This document shows positions 10,900 to 17,953 of a DNA stretch of 64,000 nucleotides, one piece after another. Every line of letters begins with the position of its first letter. The first letter of the stretch is position 1. Position numbers and translations under genes: made by a program. Source of the stretch: a virus (taxonomy: Duplodnaviria; Caudoviricetes); IMG/VR virus record IMGVR_UViG_3300031953_000001. One strand, 5' to 3'. Below the pieces are notes generated by a model that was given only the letters and a program-made list of their open reading frames with translations, had not been told where the DNA came from and did not search any database.

Positions 10900-12564
10900 A
10901 TGGCTGAAAGTACGCTGGTACCCATCGCCGACCCCAACCGTGGGTTTAAGGTCTGGTACATCGACGAGGTCTACGCGGGTGAAACCGGCACGGGTCGTTA
11001 TGTACCCAACGAACGAGATCTGGTGATCTCATACATCGACGGGTGGCTTCGAGTCATCAATGTGGATTACACCACAGGACTGAGTGAACTGCAACCGTTG
11101 GACTTCGCCGACACCGGAGGCGCTGATGTCGTCACTGATCGGTTGCTGGGCGCCGGACCTGGCCGCATCAGCGAGTCGTTTCGAGTGTTCTTGGACACCT
11201 CGGTGGTACCGCACACACTGGCGTTCGACGCGCGGATGAAAGTCCACGGCACCACCGTAAAGTACCTCAAGTTGTTTCGAGGCACTAAGATTGAAAACGG
11301 TGAAGTCGTCTCACGGCAATACAACCAACAAGGCGATCTGCTGGGGGAATCGATTCCTTTGGAGTTGGTGCAAGTTGCGGGGGCAGAGAACCTGGCCATT
11401 AAAACCCCTAAGGTAGGTCATTGTGCGGTGTCTTTACCTGATGGAGAAACGGTCACTGCGGTGATGTACGACGACATGGGTGGGGTGAGGTACACCGCTG
11501 TGTTGTTGATCAAGAACACCGGGTGGATTCGCAGTCTGAACACCGCGGTTAAGTACGTCACCAGCATCGAATTGGAATCGCCGTTCTTGTCAGCGGCAGA
11601 CGACCGGCTGCTTGAGTGTCCGGTTAACATTCCGGTAGGAGCCATCACACGTCGGGGGGTAGTGAACTACTCAGACGGTTCAAAGAAGACCTTGCCGATC
11701 GACGGCACCAAGTTTGCACTCTTTGGGTTGCAGCGCTTTGTGTCTACCATCCTGGGTCAGAAACAACCGTTGACGTTGATCTATTACCTGTCTCCGGATG
11801 AGGTGTCTTACGGATCGGTTCCAGGCGATACCATGCACCTGACCGAGAGTTACCTGGCCACCACGATCAAGGTCGATGGGGCGTACAGCGTTAAGTTGTT
11901 CACCTACCCGGCTTGGATCGACGCCATCAACGGCTACCGACTGACGCACTTCCTGTACAACTTGGAACGGGACGAGGTCTTTGAGGTAACGGCCTTGGTG
12001 GAACTGGCAGCCAATTCTCCAGCGTTCAATCCGTTGGCGTACGGGGTCAGTCAAGACATCACGTTTGCGTTGGATCTGTCCAAGGTCTCCAGTCGGTTCA
12101 AGAACTACCGACATCTACAGACCACGCGGATTTCGTTGTTAAGGCCCGGCCTTGATGACAACACCAACTGGACAGTGAACTACGACAACACGCTGCCGGC
12201 TTACGGCGTCAGTGACGAGGGTGCAGGACTTAAGGCGGAGGTTGAGTTCATCAACTCCAATCTGTGGTACCTGAGCATCGACAACGGCTTTGGCAGTGTC
12301 GAGCACTGGTTGCGTGAAGTCTATGAGAAGACGCTGCCTCTGTACGACCAAACCGCTGAGGACAAAGCACCGACGCCCAACTATTTCCGGCTGATCGCAG
12401 GGGCGTACACCATGGAAGCCCCGGTGAGCATGTGGAACCACAAGTTCACGGTCAACAACCTCTTGGATTCGGGTGAGAACGTTTACCTGCAATTCTTCCG
12501 GCGCAACTCACAAACCGATCTACAACTAAGCACTGCGGCGCTGATCATGCGTCAAACCAACTGA
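10900..12564 (+). CDS. Virion structural protein (phiKZ gp26-like, probably baseplate-associated)
   Basis: 554 aa; WYIDEVYAG..GTGRYVPN motif and synteny upstream of the terminase. Confidence 0.75.
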   Translation: MAESTLVPIADPNRGFKVWYIDEVYAGETGTGRYVPNERDLVISYIDGWLRVINVDYTTGLSELQPLDFADTGGADVVTDRLLGAGPGRISESFRVFLDTSVVPHTLAFDARMKVHGTTVKYLKLFRGTKIENGEVVSRQYNQQGDLLGESIPLELVQVAGAENLAIKTPKVGHCAVSLPDGETVTAVMYDDMGGVRYTAVLLIKNTGWIRSLNTAVKYVTSIELESPFLSAADDRLLECPVNIPVGAITRRGVVNYSDGSKKTLPIDGTKFALFGLQRFVSTILGQKQPLTLIYYLSPDEVSYGSVPGDTMHLTESYLATTIKVDGAYSVKLFTYPAWIDAINGYRLTHFLYNLERDEVFEVTALVELAANSPAFNPLAYGVSQDITFALDLSKVSSRFKNYRHLQTTRISLLRPGLDDNTNWTVNYDNTLPAYGVSDEGAGLKAEVEFINSNLWYLSIDNGFGSVEHWLREVYEKTLPLYDQTAEDKAPTPNYFRLIAGAYTMEAPVSMWNHKFTVNNLLDSGENVYLQFFRRNSQTDLQLSTAALIMRQTN

Positions 12565-12568
12565 TCAA

Positions 12569-12590
12569 AGGGGGAGGTTCGCCTCCCCCT
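12569..12590 (+). terminator. Terminator-like hairpin (weak U-tract)
   Basis: AGGGGGAGG-ttcg-CCTCCCCCT followed by GTGTTT. Confidence 0.55.
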
Positions 12591-12632
12591 GTGTTTGGCT
12601 TGGGGGTGGCGCAGTCTACAGGACATTGATGT

Positions 12633-12656
12633 ATGGTGGTCTTCAAGAACGACTAA
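12633..12656 (+). pseudogene. Orphaned original 5' end of the terminase gene (mini-ORF MVVFKND*)
   Basis: ATG GTG GTC TTC AAG AAC GAC TAA with AGGA 9 nt upstream; parallels the present terminase start (M)IIFKSSW. Confidence 0.55.
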
Positions 12657-12699
12657 GTTGTCTAACCTAGTGCTATTAGTATAGTCAAATAAACATCGT

Positions 12700-13944
12700 G
12701 TGGTGTTAACTATGCTAATTGAAAGCAAGAAGTATCGTGGGTTTTTTGATGTGCCGGGGGCACCGGGATACCTAGTAAACCGAAGTGGCGAATTCATCCT
12801 CGCGATAGATGGCAGTAAAATCAACGTCGGTAGCCGAAAGGTGGGTGTTTTAACAGTAAACTTTAAAATAAATGGGCGTTGGATTAAGCGTAGCGTAGCG
12901 AGAATAATTGCAAAGCTGTTCGTTGATGTACCGACTGAGTTATCTAACCAACGAGACACTCTACTGATCGACTACGTGGATGGAGACCGGTGGAACGTTG
13001 CAGTAGATAACCTTATATGGGTGACGTCGTCTGAACTTCAAAAGGTAGCTTTCAAACGGAAGATAGAACGTTTTCGCCAACAACACCCCGGATCTATTGC
13101 GGATGGCAAGAACGATAGATATCCGTATGCAATTGAGTGCTTCACGTTACCTGGATACTACTACTTACCGAATTTAAGTAATCCGGTAGTAATATCTAAG
13201 TTAGGACAAATTGTCAATCTGGAAACCGGAGCTGAACATCATACCAGAGTAGATAAGAAAGGATACCTTACCACCGCATTATACAACCAAGATCAAGGCA
13301 GATATATACAGGTTAAGGTTCATAGATTGGTTGCTAGGTTGTTCTCTCCTATTCCGCCTCGACATTCCGAGAGGGCCTACGATGATCTACAGGTTAATCA
13401 TCTGGATGGAGATAAACTAAACAACTACTATGAAAACCTAGAGTGGGTGACTAACGTTGAGAATATGGACCATGCTAGGAAGGCAGGGCTGTTCAGTAAT
13501 GAAATCACGGTATTGGCTAAAAATATCCAAACGGAAGAGATATCTAGATACGTATCGATTTCTGAGTGTGCTAGAACGTTCTTAATGTCCGCTAGTGTAT
13601 TATGCAAACATCTTAAATCATCGTCGGCGGGTATGATCCCTAAAGAAAGCCATGTTTTCAAACTTGACGATGATTCTCCATGGCCAAACTCGATAGCTGA
13701 AGTAGATACGGAAAACGGGTTCTATGCCAAATGCGACGTTGTGGCAAAAAACCTAAATACTGGTAAGTCGGTTATTTGCAGCAATTTAGCGCATGGCTGC
13801 AGGATATTGGGTTTAAATAAGTATACTGTCATGAACATTAGATCCCGTCAAGGAGTAGACTGGCCGGTTAAAGGTTGGGTATTTGTGTCGGTAGCCGAAT
13901 TCAAACGAACAAAGGGGACGTACGTTGATAATCTTCAAATCTAG
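12700..13944 (+). CDS. Free-standing HNH homing endonuclease (tandem HNH modules, first degenerate)
   Basis: Intact HRLVA...QVNHLDGDKLNNYYENLEWVT and degenerate IDYVDGDRWNVAVDNLIWVT; visibly more AT-rich than flanks; overlaps the terminase start by 20 nt; no group I core seen. The start may be the ATG at 12712. Confidence 0.85.
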   Translation: MVLTMLIESKKYRGFFDVPGAPGYLVNRSGEFILAIDGSKINVGSRKVGVLTVNFKINGRWIKRSVARIIAKLFVDVPTELSNQRDTLLIDYVDGDRWNVAVDNLIWVTSSELQKVAFKRKIERFRQQHPGSIADGKNDRYPYAIECFTLPGYYYLPNLSNPVVISKLGQIVNLETGAEHHTRVDKKGYLTTALYNQDQGRYIQVKVHRLVARLFSPIPPRHSERAYDDLQVNHLDGDKLNNYYENLEWVTNVENMDHARKAGLFSNEITVLAKNIQTEEISRYVSISECARTFLMSASVLCKHLKSSSAGMIPKESHVFKLDDDSPWPNSIAEVDTENGFYAKCDVVAKNLNTGKSVICSNLAHGCRILGLNKYTVMNIRSRQGVDWPVKGWVFVSVAEFKRTKGTYVDNLQI

Positions 13945-16072
13945 TTGGCGAAAATACCCTCGGGCGATTATCGATAGCAAAACACCAAACACCACCTTTT
14001 TGCGCTTGGCCTCGGTCTATCGCGCTATGGGTGTGGATCATTATTACTTTCACTTGGCGTTACTTCAACCTGAGCTTCAGGGGATAGACCCTCACAATGA
14101 AGACGCGTTGACGCTTGAGCAGAAAGCCATGATTTTGTACGAGTGCGATAACAACCCTTGGTATTACCTGAGGGAGATCGTGCTCGATAAAGGCGCAGGT
14201 TTGGAAATCGACGACTGTCGCTTTCGAGCCAATCGCTCTAACATTGCGGCTATGTGGTTGTTGCTGTCGTGTGTTGACTACATTCAAATACAACCACGGC
14301 AGACCGGTAAGTCCTTTGGTACCGACTGCAACTCTTTGTGGTTGATGTATTTTTGTTATCGCAACACGGCACTGAACCTGATCACTAAAGATGAGTCTTT
14401 GCGCAAATCCAACATCGCTCGGTTGAAGAAACTCCGGGATATGTGGCCAGACTTCATTAACCGCAATACGTCCAAAGACGACAACAACCAGATCTCCTTG
14501 TCGTGCAACATGTTGGAGAACAAATACTACACCCACGTCTCCCAAAGTTCTGAGAAAGCCGCGAACAATCTGGGTCGGGGGATGACCAGTCCGTTTATCC
14601 ACGTGGATGAGGGTCCGTTCATCAACCACATAGAGACCACGGTCAGCGCGGCTATGGGTTCGACCAACATGGCGCGGGAGATTGCCAAGCGCAAAGGCAA
14701 GCCGTATTGCACAGTGTTCACCACCACAGCCGGCAACCAAGAAGACCGGGATGGGCGTTACGTCTTTAACATGATGGCAGGGTCGGCAATCTGGACCGAG
14801 CGTTTCTTTGACTGTGTGAACCGAGAGGAGCTGGTGGGTTACATCAAAACCAACTCCGATGGGCGGGCCACCATGGTGAACCTGACCATGTCGCATCGTC
14901 AGTTGGGGTTGTCCGATCAGTGGTTGTACGAGGCCTTGGCCAACGCGCGCTCGGAAAGCGACAACATCGACCGAGATTACTTCAACCGTTGGACCAACAG
15001 CTCATCGACCTCCTTGATTCCAGAACACCTAGCTAAGGCCATGCGGCAATCGGAGAAAGAACCCGTCAGCAGTTGGATCTCCTCGGAGAATTACATCTTT
15101 CGCTGGTACACCGAAGTCGATGCGAGTCGCCATTACGTGTTGGTGGTGGATACCTCCGATGCGATCGGACGAGACGACATTGGTGTGGTGTTGTTGGATT
15201 CGCACACAGGCGCTGTGGCCGGTGCCGCGGCGTTCAACGAGACCAACCTCATTCGGTTTGCCCAGTGGTTGAAAGAGTTCTTGTTGAAGTATCGCAACAG
15301 CACCATGGTGATCGAGCGACGTTACAACGCACAAACCATCATCGACTACCTATTGTTAAAACTGCCAGAAGCGGGGGAAGACCCCTTTAAGCGGCTGTTT
15401 AACCAAGTGGTGCAAAAACGCGAAGAGCGGCAGAAGGATTTTGATCGGGTCATGGGTCCTGGTCTTAACCGCCCTAGAAACATGTACGATCAATACCGTC
15501 GAGACTTCGGGTTTGTGACCGATTCGGAAAGTCGGAAGTTGTTGTACTCCAACGTGTTGATGAACGCGGCTAAAGATGCAGGGGACCGTGTCAACGACAA
15601 GCAGTTGATTCAACAGGTGCTGTCTTTGGTCATTAAGAACAACCGGATAGACCACACCTCCGGTGGACACGATGACATGGTCATTGCGTGGTTGATTGGG
15701 CATTGGTTCTTAAACCACGGCATCAATCTGGCGGCCTATGGGTTGAACCCAGCAAGCGTCATGACCGACCGGGCTCGAGGGGGTAAAGAACTCACTCCCA
15801 CGGAGGAGTATGAGCATCAAGAGCAAAAGGCATTAATGAGTCACATTGAATCCATCCATGAGCAGTTGAAGGTGGTCAGTGGACGAATGGACATTCTTAG
15901 ACTAGAGGGGGAGATGACCGCAGCCATGTCTCGACTTAAGAGCGACGATTCAGACGGTGTGACTTTGGATGCTCTTTTACAAGAAGCCAAGGACACCCGC
16001 GATCGACGTTTGTATGGGCGCCAAGGTGCCCCTAATCGAACTCGGATGCTGTTGGAACGTTATGGACGTTAA
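13925..16072 (+). CDS. terL: Terminase large subunit (phiKZ gp25-like)
   Basis: Walker A QPRQTGKS, Walker B IHVDEG, nuclease motifs VVDTSDAIGRD and HDDMVIAW; TTG start with AAAGGGGA SD inside the HNH gene. Confidence 0.92.
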   Translation: MIIFKSSWRKYPRAIIDSKTPNTTFLRLASVYRAMGVDHYYFHLALLQPELQGIDPHNEDALTLEQKAMILYECDNNPWYYLREIVLDKGAGLEIDDCRFRANRSNIAAMWLLLSCVDYIQIQPRQTGKSFGTDCNSLWLMYFCYRNTALNLITKDESLRKSNIARLKKLRDMWPDFINRNTSKDDNNQISLSCNMLENKYYTHVSQSSEKAANNLGRGMTSPFIHVDEGPFINHIETTVSAAMGSTNMAREIAKRKGKPYCTVFTTTAGNQEDRDGRYVFNMMAGSAIWTERFFDCVNREELVGYIKTNSDGRATMVNLTMSHRQLGLSDQWLYEALANARSESDNIDRDYFNRWTNSSSTSLIPEHLAKAMRQSEKEPVSSWISSENYIFRWYTEVDASRHYVLVVDTSDAIGRDDIGVVLLDSHTGAVAGAAAFNETNLIRFAQWLKEFLLKYRNSTMVIERRYNAQTIIDYLLLKLPEAGEDPFKRLFNQVVQKREERQKDFDRVMGPGLNRPRNMYDQYRRDFGFVTDSESRKLLYSNVLMNAAKDAGDRVNDKQLIQQVLSLVIKNNRIDHTSGGHDDMVIAWLIGHWFLNHGINLAAYGLNPASVMTDRARGGKELTPTEEYEHQEQKALMSHIESIHEQLKVVSGRMDILRLEGEMTAAMSRLKSDDSDGVTLDALLQEAKDTRDRRLYGRQGAPNRTRMLLERYGR

Positions 16073-16519: not shown

Positions 16520-17953
16520 ATGAGTCGTTTCACATCGTTCTTTAAACCCAAGCGACTTTCAAAACAAGTCGCCGAAACGATCGCCCCTCCAACGCGAGCT
16601 CCAATCGACGTTCCGCTACCTTTAAGACGGTACTTTGAGGCATCGACCTACATCCCAGTGTATTTAAGCGACGACGTCTTACACCCGGTGGTGAAGATGG
16701 TGCAACTCACGTGTGAGGACGGTCCCGGGCAGGTGGTGTTTCGAGAAGACAGTTTGTTGGATCTGGATTTGCTCCAGAGACACAGTGGCAAACGGTTTCA
16801 TCGCATGGATCGGAGTCAGTATCGTCAGGTGTTGGGTGAGGTGGGGGTGAACCTGATCCCACCCATGCCAAGACTGACCTGTGCCTGTACCTGGGTAGAC
16901 TACAGAGTCGATGACTTAGATAGCGCTTTGGTGGATCTTACAGGGCAACGAGAGTACGCGGTGGTTTCTAAAGTCATGTTGATGGATTGGCTGAAAGATA
17001 ACCCTAGGGTAGATATCGCCATGTCCATGTTACAATTGAACTCTGATGACGGCTCTATACAAAACGACACCGATTGCATCAACGGGGCGATTCGTAAACT
17101 GACCAAGCTGCGCATAGAACGGCGCCTGGTGGACACTTTGGAATTGCCTCCGTTGCCCGACATCGCTCGTCGATTGATCGAGTTACGCAGCAACCCTCAA
17201 GGCAACCTCATGGATCTGGTGGAGGCGATTGAAAGCGATCCTATTCTATCAGCGAACGTGCTTCGTTGGGCTAACTCGTCACTCTATGCGACGACAGTCA
17301 AGGTCGAGTCCGTAACCGACGCTGTGGGACGAGTGTTAGGGTATGACATGACCATGAACTTAATGATGGGTCTGGTGTTAGGTCGAGTGATGGACGTCCC
17401 TGACCATACCCCTACGCATGTGTTGGGGTTTTGGGAACAGTCGATCTGGGTGGCACACGGCGCGCGCGCGGTGAGTAAACTCTTACCCTCAGACCGTCAC
17501 GTCCCGCACGGCTTGGCGTATTTAACCGGGTTGTTGCATAATTTTGGGTACTTGATTCTTAACCACGCGTTTCCACCGCATTTCCGTTTGATCACCGAGT
17601 CAACTGACATCAACCGACACATAGACGTCAGTTTGGTGGATGCGCACATCCTAGGCATCACTCGAGAGCAGATAGGTGCGGAGTTGTTGCGCAACTGGAT
17701 GATCGGTGAGGATGTGGTGACTGGGGTACGTTATCACAAGCGTATTGAGTACACACATGAGGCGACTTACGCCAATCTGATTTACTTGACTCGGGGAGTG
17801 TTGATGAAACACGGGGTTCTGTTGGGGGCTAGATACACCGTTCCTCTGGCTTTATATACTTACTTAGGTCTATCGCCTGAAGCCGTAGACGATTGCATAG
17901 TGGCTTTGTTGGAACACAAAGACGAGATTTTAGGTATGGCACATCGGGTGTGA
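16520..17953 (+). CDS. YbaK-like + HDOD domain protein (SadB-like, host-derived)
   Basis: HDOD motifs LPPLP, ESDPILSANVLRWANSSLY and YLTGLLHNFGYLIL..FPPHF; N-terminal region resembles the YbaK-like domain of Pseudomonas SadB-type proteins; 477 aa. Confidence 0.8.
   Translation: MSRFTSFFKPKRLSKQVAETIAPPTRAPIDVPLPLRRYFEASTYIPVYLSDDVLHPVVKMVQLTCEDGPGQVVFREDSLLDLDLLQRHSGKRFHRMDRSQYRQVLGEVGVNLIPPMPRLTCACTWVDYRVDDLDSALVDLTGQREYAVVSKVMLMDWLKDNPRVDIAMSMLQLNSDDGSIQNDTDCINGAIRKLTKLRIERRLVDTLELPPLPDIARRLIELRSNPQGNLMDLVEAIESDPILSANVLRWANSSLYATTVKVESVTDAVGRVLGYDMTMNLMMGLVLGRVMDVPDHTPTHVLGFWEQSIWVAHGARAVSKLLPSDRHVPHGLAYLTGLLHNFGYLILNHAFPPHFRLITESTDINRHIDVSLVDAHILGITREQIGAELLRNWMIGEDVVTGVRYHKRIEYTHEATYANLIYLTRGVLMKHGVLLGARYTVPLALYTYLGLSPEAVDDCIVALLEHKDEILGMAHRV

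What the first reader, a model, noticed from the sequence alone, without database searches (positions are those of the whole stretch)
12619..13960. Homing endonuclease appears to have displaced the terminase start and supplied a recoded one
Upstream of the HNH gene is an SD (AGGA) and ATG GTG GTC TTC AAG AAC GAC TAA (MVVFKND*, 12633-12656). The functional terminase starts inside the last 20 nt of the HNH gene as TTG ATA ATC TTC AAA TCT AGT TGG (MIIFKSSW-RKYP), with an SD AAAGGGGA at 13911. The two starts align at protein level and share TCTTCAA, and the T after GAC matches the first base of the Trp codon. The simplest reading is that the HNH inserted about 7 codons into terL and its own 3' end now encodes a recoded replacement N-terminus and RBS. 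That would keep the essential gene intact, probably make the allele cleavage-resistant, and make the element hard to lose. No group I core is visible and the junction lacks a terminal G, so this is not an ordinary intron.
Basis: partly seen in the sequence, partly recalled or inferred. Interest (0 to 1): 0.78.

Follow-up and report, generated by a model that had tools for sequence, protein, structure and literature searches.

The report
Homing endonuclease carrying spare terminase start
A selfish nuclease gene has inserted into the eighth codon of a giant phage's essential DNA-packaging gene and carries its own ribosome-binding site, start codon and respelled first seven codons, which most likely keep the gene working, while the old start survives upstream as a seven-codon relic.

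Summary
The window comes from a phiKZ-like jumbo phage.

- **Relatives without the nuclease gene.** Five lineages have the same gene order (TerL 59-93% identical). Their terL (large terminase gene) reads straight through from an ATG at the position of 12633, as MIVFK[S/Q]DWR.. or MIVFPGDW.
- **The insert.** The window is homologous to these relatives up to GAC-T (12654) and again from TGG (13946). In between lies 1292 bp of lower-GC DNA. It holds an HNH_3 homing-endonuclease gene (12712-13944), a Shine-Dalgarno site (13912-13918), and TTG plus six codons (13925-13945).
- **The start.** TTG 13925 is the only canonical start between an in-frame stop (13892) and the conserved Trp8.
- **Recurrence.** The same nuclease family sits directly 5' of terL in seven other lineages. 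Four of these also keep a relic M-x-x-x-x-x-D mini-ORF that breaks inside codon 8.
- **Rivals.** I found no intron core. A terminal G at the intron's 3' end, which group I splicing needs, is absent in every lineage.

Translation from the TTG, homing, and immunity to self-cleavage are inferred, not shown.

The closest published analogue is the endonuclease "mORF" gene hybrids of fungal mitochondria, which replace 3' gene ends. Earlier notes from this scan describe the same design on other phage DNA.

The parts
10900..12564 (+). Virion structural protein gene. It is the conserved upstream neighbour of terL.
   Evidence: phrog_3430, E 7.5e-187. The same neighbour precedes terL in HNH-less relatives L006, L008, L010 and L015.
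12570..12587 (+). GC-rich terminator-like hairpin after the structural gene.
   Evidence: Terminator scan. An equivalent hairpin lies 40-45 nt before the terL ATG in L006, L008, L009 and L010.
12620..12623 (+). Original terL Shine-Dalgarno site (AGGA), 9 nt before the relic ATG.
   Evidence: Sequence. It lies within the block ACAGGACAT, which HNH-less relatives also carry in front of their terL ATG.
12633..12656 (+). Relic of the original terL start: seven codons (MVVFKND), closed by a TAA stop at the cassette's first bases.
   Evidence: Homologous to the terL start of L010 at 32 of 42 nt, counting the 20 nt upstream. It keeps the invariant Asp7.
12655..13946 (+). Inserted homing-endonuclease cassette, 1292 bp. 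The boundary is ambiguous by 1 nt, so 12654-13945 is equally possible.
   Evidence: Homology to HNH-less relatives stops at GAC-T and resumes at (T)GG CGA. GC is 0.40-0.45 against 0.53-0.56 in the upstream structural-gene flank.
12672..12722 (+). Predicted RNA hairpin whose 11-bp stem (12675-12685 with 12709-12719) covers the HNH start codon. It is a candidate translational brake on the nuclease.
   Evidence: MFE fold. The fold energy of the surrounding 121 nt is not better than that of shuffled sequence (z -0.42), so support is weak.
12712..13944 (+). HNH homing-endonuclease gene, 410 aa. It has an N-terminal degenerate HNH_3-like module (His replaced by Tyr) and an intact catalytic HNH_3 module at about residues 204-256.
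   Evidence: Pfam HNH_3, 1.8e-16, two stretches. phrog_59, 7.8e-42. I-HmuI (PDB 1u3e), E 1.2e-6. Invariant N229, H230, D232, N251 and H254 in alignment A1.
13912..13918 (+). Cassette-borne Shine-Dalgarno site (AAGGGGA) inside the HNH 3' end, 6 nt before the TTG.
   Evidence: Sequence.
13925..13945 (+). Cassette-borne replacement start: TTG plus six codons, (M)IIFKSS. It overlaps the last 20 nt of the HNH gene.
   Evidence: It is the only ATG, GTG or TTG between the in-frame TAG at 13892 and Trp8. GC is 0.24, against 0.48 for the relic.
13925..16072 (+). Working terL (terminase large subunit), 715 aa. It is native from Trp8 (13946) onward.
   Evidence: phrog_2, 6e-49. It is 38-42% identical to the TerL of jumbo phages in GenBank and aligns from residue 1. 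It is 71-82% identical to full-length metagenomic relatives, and 93% over the 71% of its length covered by the partial P0009.

Best explanation
A 1292-bp mobile HNH homing-endonuclease cassette sits inside codon 8 (Trp) of the terL gene of a phiKZ-like jumbo phage.

**What the insertion did.** It cut off the gene's own Shine-Dalgarno site, ATG and first seven codons. These remain upstream as a dead-end mini-ORF (12633-12656), closed by the cassette's first bases.

**What the cassette supplies.** Its 3' end, overlapping the end of the nuclease gene, carries a substitute Shine-Dalgarno site, a TTG start and a differently spelled copy of codons 2-7. Ribosomes should therefore start afresh at 13925 and make a full-length TerL beginning (M)IIFKSSW.

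**Shown:**
- the insertion boundaries;
- the homology of the relic to the real start in nuclease-free relatives;
- that the TTG is the only canonical start before the conserved N-terminus;
- that the same nuclease family occupies this spot, with a relic in five lineages counting this window.

**Inferred:**
- The nuclease cuts nuclease-free terL alleles at or near the invariant GAY-TGG (Asp7-Trp8).
- The break is repaired from the cassette-bearing genome. The relic and upstream DNA serve as the left homology arm and Trp8 onward as the right arm. The cassette is thus copied precisely, and the relic is renewed from each newly invaded genome.
- The respelling of codons 1-7 (here Asp7 to Ser) keeps the re-formed start-to-body junction from being cut. 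It also keeps the two copies from recombining the cassette out.
For: 1. Five HNH-less relatives with identical gene order have one uninterrupted terL start at the relic position: L006/7, L008, L009, L010 and L015.
2. The window's left flank matches L010 at 32 of 42 nt up to GAC-T. The cassette copy matches at 16 of 42.
3. Composition: GC is 0.43 in the HNH gene and 0.24 in the new seven codons, against 0.48 in the relic and 0.52-0.55 in the flanking genes.
4. The family N-terminus is M1, I2, F4, D7 and W8, with D7 and W8 in 75 of 75 homologues. AlphaFold gives residues 1-10 a pLDDT of 87 with a helix at 5-10. The N-terminus therefore matters and has to be replaced, not dropped.
5. An in-frame TAG at 13892 leaves TTG 13925 as the only canonical start before Trp8.
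6. The nuclease family (35-47% identical to one another) abuts or overlaps the terL start in L012, L013, L014, L018, L019/20, L021/22, L178 and Xanthomonas phage RTH11.
7. Clear relics occur in L013 (MILFLDD|T), L018 (MILFLDD|T), L021/22 (MITFTED|T) and L178 (MVLHLSDW|). All break within codon 8.
8. In L019 the relic is frameshifted while the cassette copy has a normal ATG. In RTH11 no relic is recognisable. The cassette copy is thus the constant, working part.
9. L012 differs from its HNH-less sister L015 at 9 of the first 21 nt, against 10% over the whole gene.
Against: - The working copy carries Ser at position 7, where 75 of 75 homologues have Asp, while the supposedly dead relic keeps Asp. 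A joined relic-plus-body product would look more 'normal'.
- In L021/L022 the cassette copy has no canonical start (ATT ATC ATA) while the relic is intact. The sister lineage L019 shows the reverse. This would also fit some lineages still using the relic.
- Vibrio phage ICP1 shows that a short N-terminal terL exon can be spliced (PMC10448857).
- There are no expression, proteomic or cleavage data.
Confidence: 0.8

Rival explanations
1. The 1292 bp are a spliced intron (group I or an unusual type). RNA splicing joins the 7-codon exon at 12633-12653/4 to Trp8, giving MVVFKNDWRKYP. On this view the TTG copy is incidental.
For: - The joined product would match the family motif perfectly, including the invariant Asp7.
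- The 5' piece ends in U, as group I 5' exons do.
- L021/L022 keep an intact relic but lack a canonical start in the cassette copy.
- ICP1 terL has a short spliced N-terminal exon (PMC10448857).
- An unchecked scan note reports a group I intron elsewhere in this genome.
Against: - No Rfam intron model matched, even at E up to 10 in the window and up to 5 in five other lineages.
- The base before the 3' junction is U, A or C, never G, in all lineages.
- Non-coding space is far too small for a ribozyme core: 55 nt in the window and 12 + 9 nt in L021.
- The nuclease coding sequences are only 35-47% identical, so they cannot hide a conserved core.
- An in-frame, start-bearing mimic of codons 1-7 preceded by a stop is kept in all eight lineages examined (the window and seven others). 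That has no purpose in an intron.
- The relic is frameshifted in L019 and unrecognisable in RTH11 and L014.
Confidence: 0.05
2. The second start copy was not brought in by the cassette. It arose in place, as a target-site or tandem duplication of the first ~21 nt at the time of insertion, and has since diverged.
For: In each lineage the cassette copy resembles that lineage's own relic more than it resembles other lineages' cassette copies. Examples are Lys5 in the window, Leu5 in L013/L018 and His4 in L178.
Against: - The copies share only 10-15 of 21 nt.
- The relic should be the unselected copy, yet it is the one closer to the family consensus and to HNH-less relatives. That is the reverse of what decay after a local duplication predicts.
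- The new copy's GC (0.24) resembles the cassette, not the host gene. However, 21 nt is too short for this to carry much weight.
Confidence: 0.1
3. The HNH protein is a packaging helper of the HK97 type that works with terminase, and is not a mobile element. Its position next to terL would then be functional.
For: HNH genes next to terminase genes can be packaging components (discussed in PMC10448857).
Against: - It is absent from the closest relatives, whose TerL is 59-93% identical.
- Its architecture is I-HmuI-like HNH_3, not the small PF01844 type.
- It has lower GC than the host genes.
- It interrupts the coding sequence and leaves a relic.
Confidence: 0.03

Closest known systems
Endonuclease 'mORF' gene hybrids of fungal mitochondria: Allomyces macrogynus atp6 (Paquin et al. 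1994, as cited in PMC3630166) and Glomus atp6, atp9, cox2 and nad3 (PMC3630166)
   Same: - A mobile endonuclease ORF travels with a foreign, differently spelled copy of the host gene's terminus, which is read in frame with the host gene.
- The displaced native terminus stays nearby as a relic that is closer to relatives than the inserted copy is.
   Different: - Those elements replace the 3' (C-terminal) end, use LAGLIDADG or GIY-YIG enzymes, and live in organelles.
- Here the 5' end is replaced, so the cassette must also bring a ribosome-binding site and a start codon.
- The enzyme here is an HNH_3 type and the host is a jumbo phage.
- The replaced piece is only seven codons long.
Free-standing homing endonucleases of T4-like phages that split host genes: mobE in Aeh1 nrdA, mobA in T4 gene 39/60, seg43 in phage 25 gene 43 (PMC2988022)
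   Same: - A phage HNH or GIY-YIG gene is inserted within an essential gene with no intron or intein.
- New stop and start signals are created.
- Nuclease expression is damped by hairpins and by overlaps with neighbouring genes.
   Different: - There, both gene halves are translated and reassemble into the enzyme.
- Here the upstream 7-codon piece is discarded and a cassette-encoded copy replaces it.
I-HmuI (Bacillus phage SPO1 intron endonuclease, PDB 1u3e)
   Same: It is the closest solved relative of the catalytic module. It matches residues 160-261 at E 1.2e-6 and belongs to the HNH_3 class.
   Different: - I-HmuI is encoded inside a self-splicing group I intron.
- It is 174 aa, with no extra degenerate N-terminal HNH-like module.
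Intron in Vibrio phage ICP1 terL, with a short N-terminal exon and a neighbouring T5orf172 homing endonuclease (PMC10448857)
   Same: A very short N-terminal terL piece is separated from the body of the gene, with a homing endonuclease beside it.
   Different: - In ICP1, splicing was shown by RNA-seq and RT-PCR, and the endonuclease lies outside the intron.
- Here no intron core or splice-site rule is met, and a replacement start is present.

Membership tests
HNH_3 / I-HmuI-like homing endonuclease | HNH_3 domain scoring above the Pfam gathering threshold | tested here: met
   PF13392 scores 60 bits against a cutoff of 24.8, with two stretches. phrog_59 matches at 7.8e-42.
HNH_3 / I-HmuI-like homing endonuclease | Intact beta-beta-alpha-metal catalytic residues (His ... 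Asn ... Asn/His) | tested here: met
   N229, H230, D232, N237, N242, N251 and H254 are invariant in seven family members. The first module has Tyr in place of His and is degenerate.
HNH_3 / I-HmuI-like homing endonuclease | Patchy presence among close relatives at one fixed genomic site | tested here: met
   Present in the window and in L012. Absent from L006-L010 and from L015/16, which have the same gene order.
HNH_3 / I-HmuI-like homing endonuclease | Site-specific cleavage of the element-free allele, and biased inheritance in mixed infection | not testable with these tools
   This needs the purified enzyme and phage crosses.
Gene-terminus-replacing endonuclease cassette (mORF-type hybrid) | The endonuclease ORF is linked to a second, divergent copy of the host gene's terminus, read in frame with the host gene | tested here: met
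   TTG plus six codons at 13925-13945 are in frame with Trp8 onward. The same holds in seven other lineages.
Gene-terminus-replacing endonuclease cassette (mORF-type hybrid) | The displaced native terminus persists and is closer to relatives than the inserted copy is | tested here: met
   32 of 42 nt against 16 of 42 nt versus L010. The relic keeps the invariant Asp7.
Gene-terminus-replacing endonuclease cassette (mORF-type hybrid) | The hybrid gene is the expressed, functional copy | not testable with these tools
   This is inferred only, from the in-frame stop at 13892, the Shine-Dalgarno site and TTG, and the conserved residues 8-34.
Group I intron | Conserved catalytic core (P3-P9) detectable by a covariance model | tested here: not met
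   No Intron_gpI hit at E up to 10 in the window, nor in five related loci.
Group I intron | The 5' exon ends in U and the intron ends in G | tested here: not met
   A U precedes the 5' junction. The last base before the 3' junction is U, A or C in every lineage.
T4 gene 60-type translational bypass | A short gap of about 50 nt with matching take-off and landing codons | tested here: not met
   The gap would be 1292 nt. Codon GAC before the gap does not match AGT before the landing site.
HK97-type packaging HNH | Conserved presence beside the terminase gene across related phages | tested here: not met
   Absent from the five closest syntenic relatives.

The most novel reading that the evidence does not exclude
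These cassettes are a distinct, dedicated way for a homing endonuclease to live inside an essential gene, alongside introns and inteins. The element carries a respelled spare copy of the gene's 5' end with its translation signals. It targets the invariant Asp7-Trp8 codons of jumbo-phage terL. At each homing event it regenerates a fresh relic from the invaded genome, and the respelling doubles as immunity to its own nuclease. A rarer alternative, at about 5%, is that the relic and the gene body are joined by an unrecognised RNA-level or ribosome-level mechanism.
Probability: 0.55. Interest if true: 0.75.

Novelty: new variant of a known kind. Interest (0 to 1): 0.62.

Why it matters
- **Biology.** It shows how a selfish nuclease can invade the very start of an essential phage gene without an intron or intein, by bringing a spare gene start.
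- **Annotation.** It explains a recurring annotation error. Gene callers truncated this TerL to Met35 (681 aa). In Xanthomonas phage RTH11 the nuclease gene is not annotated at all.
- **Target prediction.** Relics that all end inside one codon predict the insertion site, and probably the cleavage site, at the invariant GAY-TGG.
- **Phage engineering and competition.** Such cassettes should drive biased inheritance of the terL region in mixed infections of jumbo phages. This is relevant to phage competition and to phage engineering.
- **Precedent.** I found no published description of 5'-end replacement by a homing cassette in phages in the library searched.

Tried and rejected
- **Intron models.** Rfam scans of the window (E up to 10) and of five related loci gave no hit.
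- **Co-conversion tract from GC.** The first ~600 nt of terL have lower GC. HNH-less relatives show the same dip, so it is a property of the gene.
- **Co-conversion tract from identity.** DNA identity to HNH-less sisters is lowest next to the junction. But the N-terminal 50 residues are the least conserved part of the protein anyway. This is inconclusive.
- **Promoters.** The scan found a sigma-70-like TTGTCT-16-TATAGT at 12658-12685. The count of such sites is no higher than in shuffled sequence, and phiKZ-like phages use their own RNA polymerases. I did not use it.
- **RNA folds.** Folds around both starts are no more stable than shuffled sequence. Only the local 11-bp stem over the HNH AUG is worth noting.
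- **Metagenome scan.** The 80 best loci related to the nuclease held no further terL-adjacent members. L180 (P0127) is not next to terL.
- **Whole genome.** None is held for this window, so I could not search for paralogues of the nuclease.
- **Relics in L014 and RTH11.** None could be identified convincingly. L012's contig starts too close to the nuclease gene to see one.
Full report
**What is in the sequence**

- AGGA at 12620-12623, then nine bases, then ATG GTG GTC TTC AAG AAC GAC TAA at 12633-12656.
- An ORF from 12700 or 12712 to 13944.
- AAAGGGGA at 13911-13918, then TTG ATA ATC TTC AAA TCT AGT TGG from 13925.

The TTG opens a 715-aa ORF that ends at 16072. The middle ORF is an HNH_3 endonuclease: Pfam 60 bits against a cutoff of 24.8 with two stretches, phrog_59 at 7.8e-42, and I-HmuI (1u3e) as the nearest solved relative at E 1.2e-6. 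The long ORF is a terminase large subunit (phrog_2). It aligns from its first residue to the TerL of phiKZ-like jumbo phages at 38-42% identity. The upstream genes are DUF7193 and a virion structural protein. GC falls from 0.53-0.56 in the upstream flank to 0.40-0.45 across the HNH gene.

A protein search found much closer metagenomic TerL relatives: 71-82% identity for full-length proteins and 93% for the partial P0009. I fetched their contigs. L006/L007, L008, L009, L010 (P0009, 93% identical) and L015/L016 all have the same gene order: DUF7193, structural protein, a GC-rich hairpin, about 70 nt, then terL. They have no HNH gene.

Their terL starts read ATG ATT GTC TTT AAA AGT GAC TGG CGA and close variants, giving MIVFK[S/Q]DWR.. 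in L006-L010 and MIVFPGDW in L015. The ATG sits at the position of the window's 12633, behind the same ACAGGACAT block. The window matches L010 at 32 of 42 nt up to GAC-T. The copy at 13905-13946 matches at only 16 of 42.

Homology to the relatives therefore stops at 12654 and resumes at 13946, with a 1-nt ambiguity. That defines a 1292-bp insert. All nine contigs that encode the identical TerL carry the HNH gene.

**Why the seven codons matter**

Among the best TerL homologues, 75 have Trp at position 8. Of these, 75 have M1, 70 have I2, 71 have F4, and all 75 have D7 and W8. An AlphaFold model of residues 1-280, built from a 32-sequence alignment, has mean pLDDT 88.8. It places residues 1-10 at pLDDT 87, with a helix at 5-10. 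The N-terminus is thus a conserved, ordered part of the protein. That explains why an element inserted at codon 8 must supply a substitute rather than let translation begin further downstream. The automatic gene call for this protein begins at Met35 (P0001, 681 aa). Residues 8-34 are clearly conserved with relatives. In the terL frame a TAG at 13892 leaves TTG 13925 as the only ATG, GTG or TTG before Trp8.

**The same design elsewhere**

Relatives of the nuclease (35-47% identical) lie directly 5' of terL in seven other lineages. Their TerL proteins are only 39-61% identical across lineages.

| Lineage | Position of nuclease gene relative to terL |
|---|---|
| L012 | overlaps terL by 17 nt |
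| L013 | directly 5' of terL |
| L014 | directly 5' of terL |
| L018 | directly 5' of terL |
| L019/L020 | directly 5' of terL |
| L021/L022 | directly 5' of terL |
| L178/L179 | directly 5' of terL |
| Xanthomonas phage RTH11 (cultured) | GTGA overlap with terL |

Four of these keep a recognisable relic of the old start just upstream of the nuclease gene.

| Lineage | Relic | New start |
|---|---|---|
| L013 | MILFLDD, then T | MLLFLNQW |
| L018 | MILFLDD, then T | MLLFLQDW |
| L021/L022 | MITFTED, then T | IILFEQDW |
| L178 | MVLHLSDW | MTILHLADW |

Counting the window, that makes five lineages whose relics all break inside codon 8, after its first base or, in L178, after its third. The pattern ATG-[ILV]-[ILVT]-[FY]-x-x-D-T has a chance frequency of roughly 4e-7 per position (my estimate). 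Four such relics cannot be accidents. Relic and new copy share 10-15 of 21 nt. In every lineage an in-frame stop lies 1-18 codons (1-10 in all but RTH11) before the new start.

In L019 the relic is frameshifted while the new copy has a normal ATG. In RTH11 and L014 I could find no relic. The cassette-borne copy is therefore the constant, working element, and the relic is dispensable debris. L012 differs from its HNH-less sister L015 at 9 of the first 21 nt, against 10% over the whole gene.

**Mechanism**

Shown:
- the insert and its boundaries;
- that the relic is the old start;
- that the cassette provides the only usable start;
- that this is a recurrent property of one nuclease family.

Inferred:
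- The nuclease recognises the highly conserved start of terL, with the invariant GAY-TGG at its centre, in genomes that lack it.
- The break is repaired from the cassette-bearing genome. The relic and upstream DNA act as the left arm and Trp8 onward as the right arm.
- Each invasion therefore leaves the invaded genome's own first seven codons as a fresh relic. This would explain why relics look so well preserved in lineages whose nucleases are only about 40% identical.
- The respelled copy avoids re-creating the target site and avoids a direct repeat that could delete the cassette. In the window this goes as far as replacing the otherwise invariant Asp7 with Ser.

In several pairs the nuclease is as similar as, or more similar than, TerL: window against L018, L019 and L021, and L012 against L019 and L021. 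This hints at transfer between lineages.

The HNH AUG lies in an 11-bp stem (12675-12685 with 12709-12719). L014 has a perfect 17-bp hairpin just before its HNH ATG. Both recall the hairpin control of T4-type homing endonucleases (PMC2988022). The fold statistics are not significant, so this remains a suggestion.

**Rivals**

*Splicing* is the main rival. A joined product would carry the invariant Asp7. L021/L022 lack a canonical start in the cassette copy. ICP1 terL really does have a short spliced N-terminal exon (PMC10448857).

Against splicing:
- No intron model matches.
- The base before the 3' junction is never G.
- L021 has only 12 + 9 non-coding bases.
- A start-bearing, in-frame mimic of codons 1-7 is preserved everywhere.

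I put splicing at about 5%.

*A local duplication at insertion* (about 10%) is disfavoured. The relic should be the unselected copy, yet it is the one closer to the consensus.

*A packaging-helper role* for the HNH protein (about 3%) does not fit its absence from the closest relatives.

**Comparison with what is known**

The closest published analogue is the endonuclease mORF hybrids of fungal mitochondria. In those, the element brings a foreign, divergent C-terminal copy of atp6, atp9, cox2 or nad3, and the native end survives downstream (PMC3630166, which cites Paquin et al. 1994). T4-type phages have nuclease insertions that split genes into two working pieces (PMC2988022).

The present case is the mirror image of the mORF design. 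The 5' end is replaced, so the cassette also needs a ribosome-binding site and a start codon, and it sits in a jumbo phage. Five literature searches found no description of this in phages, but the library is incomplete.

Earlier notes from this scan describe the same design on other phage DNA: a tail-fibre start, a terL start with 27-29 codons, a terS start and a phosphoesterase 3' end. I had reached the mORF comparison before reading them and did not test their claims.

**Verdict**

This is a new variant of a known kind. Confidence is 0.8 in the re-initiation cassette model.

Noticed in passing
L021:4275-4310 (also L022): The cassette-borne terL start has no canonical start codon. It reads TGA GGT GAC ATT ATC ATA CTC TTC GAA CAG GAC TGG. 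The HNH stop codon TGA is in the terL frame and sits inside a strong GAGGTGA Shine-Dalgarno site. Initiation would have to use ATC, ATA or ATT, or TGA read-through would make a nuclease-TerL fusion. The sister lineage L019 has a normal ATG.
   Followed up: partly
L019:447-468: The relic of the old terL start carries a 1-nt insertion relative to L021 (ATGAATTCCATTTACAGAAGAC), so it no longer encodes the motif. This is evidence that relics decay.
   Followed up: partly
L017:3085-3873 (Xanthomonas phage RTH11, OQ790161.1 279584-280372): An intact 262-aa HNH_3 endonuclease ORF lies directly before terL and is not annotated as such. The record lists a minus-strand hypothetical protein and a 204-nt plus-strand fragment there. 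terL starts at a GTG that overlaps the HNH stop (GTGA), three codons before the usual position, where ATT replaces ATG.
   Followed up: partly
L014:4810-4830, L018:3385-3395, L019 and L021 just after the hairpin: The motif TATGCCGC directly follows the terminator-like hairpin upstream of terL in four lineages. It is possibly a phage promoter. The window and its close relatives instead share ACAGGACAT.
   Followed up: no
window 12712-13100: The first ~130 residues of the nuclease form a degenerate second HNH_3-like module (IDYVDGD, with Tyr in place of the catalytic His). It is conserved in the ~390-413-aa members and absent from the 262-272-aa members (RTH11, L019, L021). It is probably a DNA-binding add-on.
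   Followed up: partly
window 13925-14027: Automatic gene calling on public contigs starts this TerL at Met35 (681 aa, P0001). It misses the TTG start and 34 conserved residues.
   Followed up: yes
L014:4900-4945: A perfect 17-bp hairpin (GACTATACCCTAATGCT / AGCATTAGGGTATAGTC) ends 2 nt before the HNH ATG. The window shares TATAGTCAAAT at the equivalent place (12680-12690).
   Followed up: no
L013:8416-9702 (minus strand): A second HNH_3-type gene (428 aa) lies immediately downstream of terL in this lineage, so terL is flanked by nuclease genes on both sides.
   Followed up: no
window 16520-17953: A 477-aa HDOD-domain protein follows terL. It is conserved at this position in all close relatives (L006, L008, L009, L010).
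   Followed up: no
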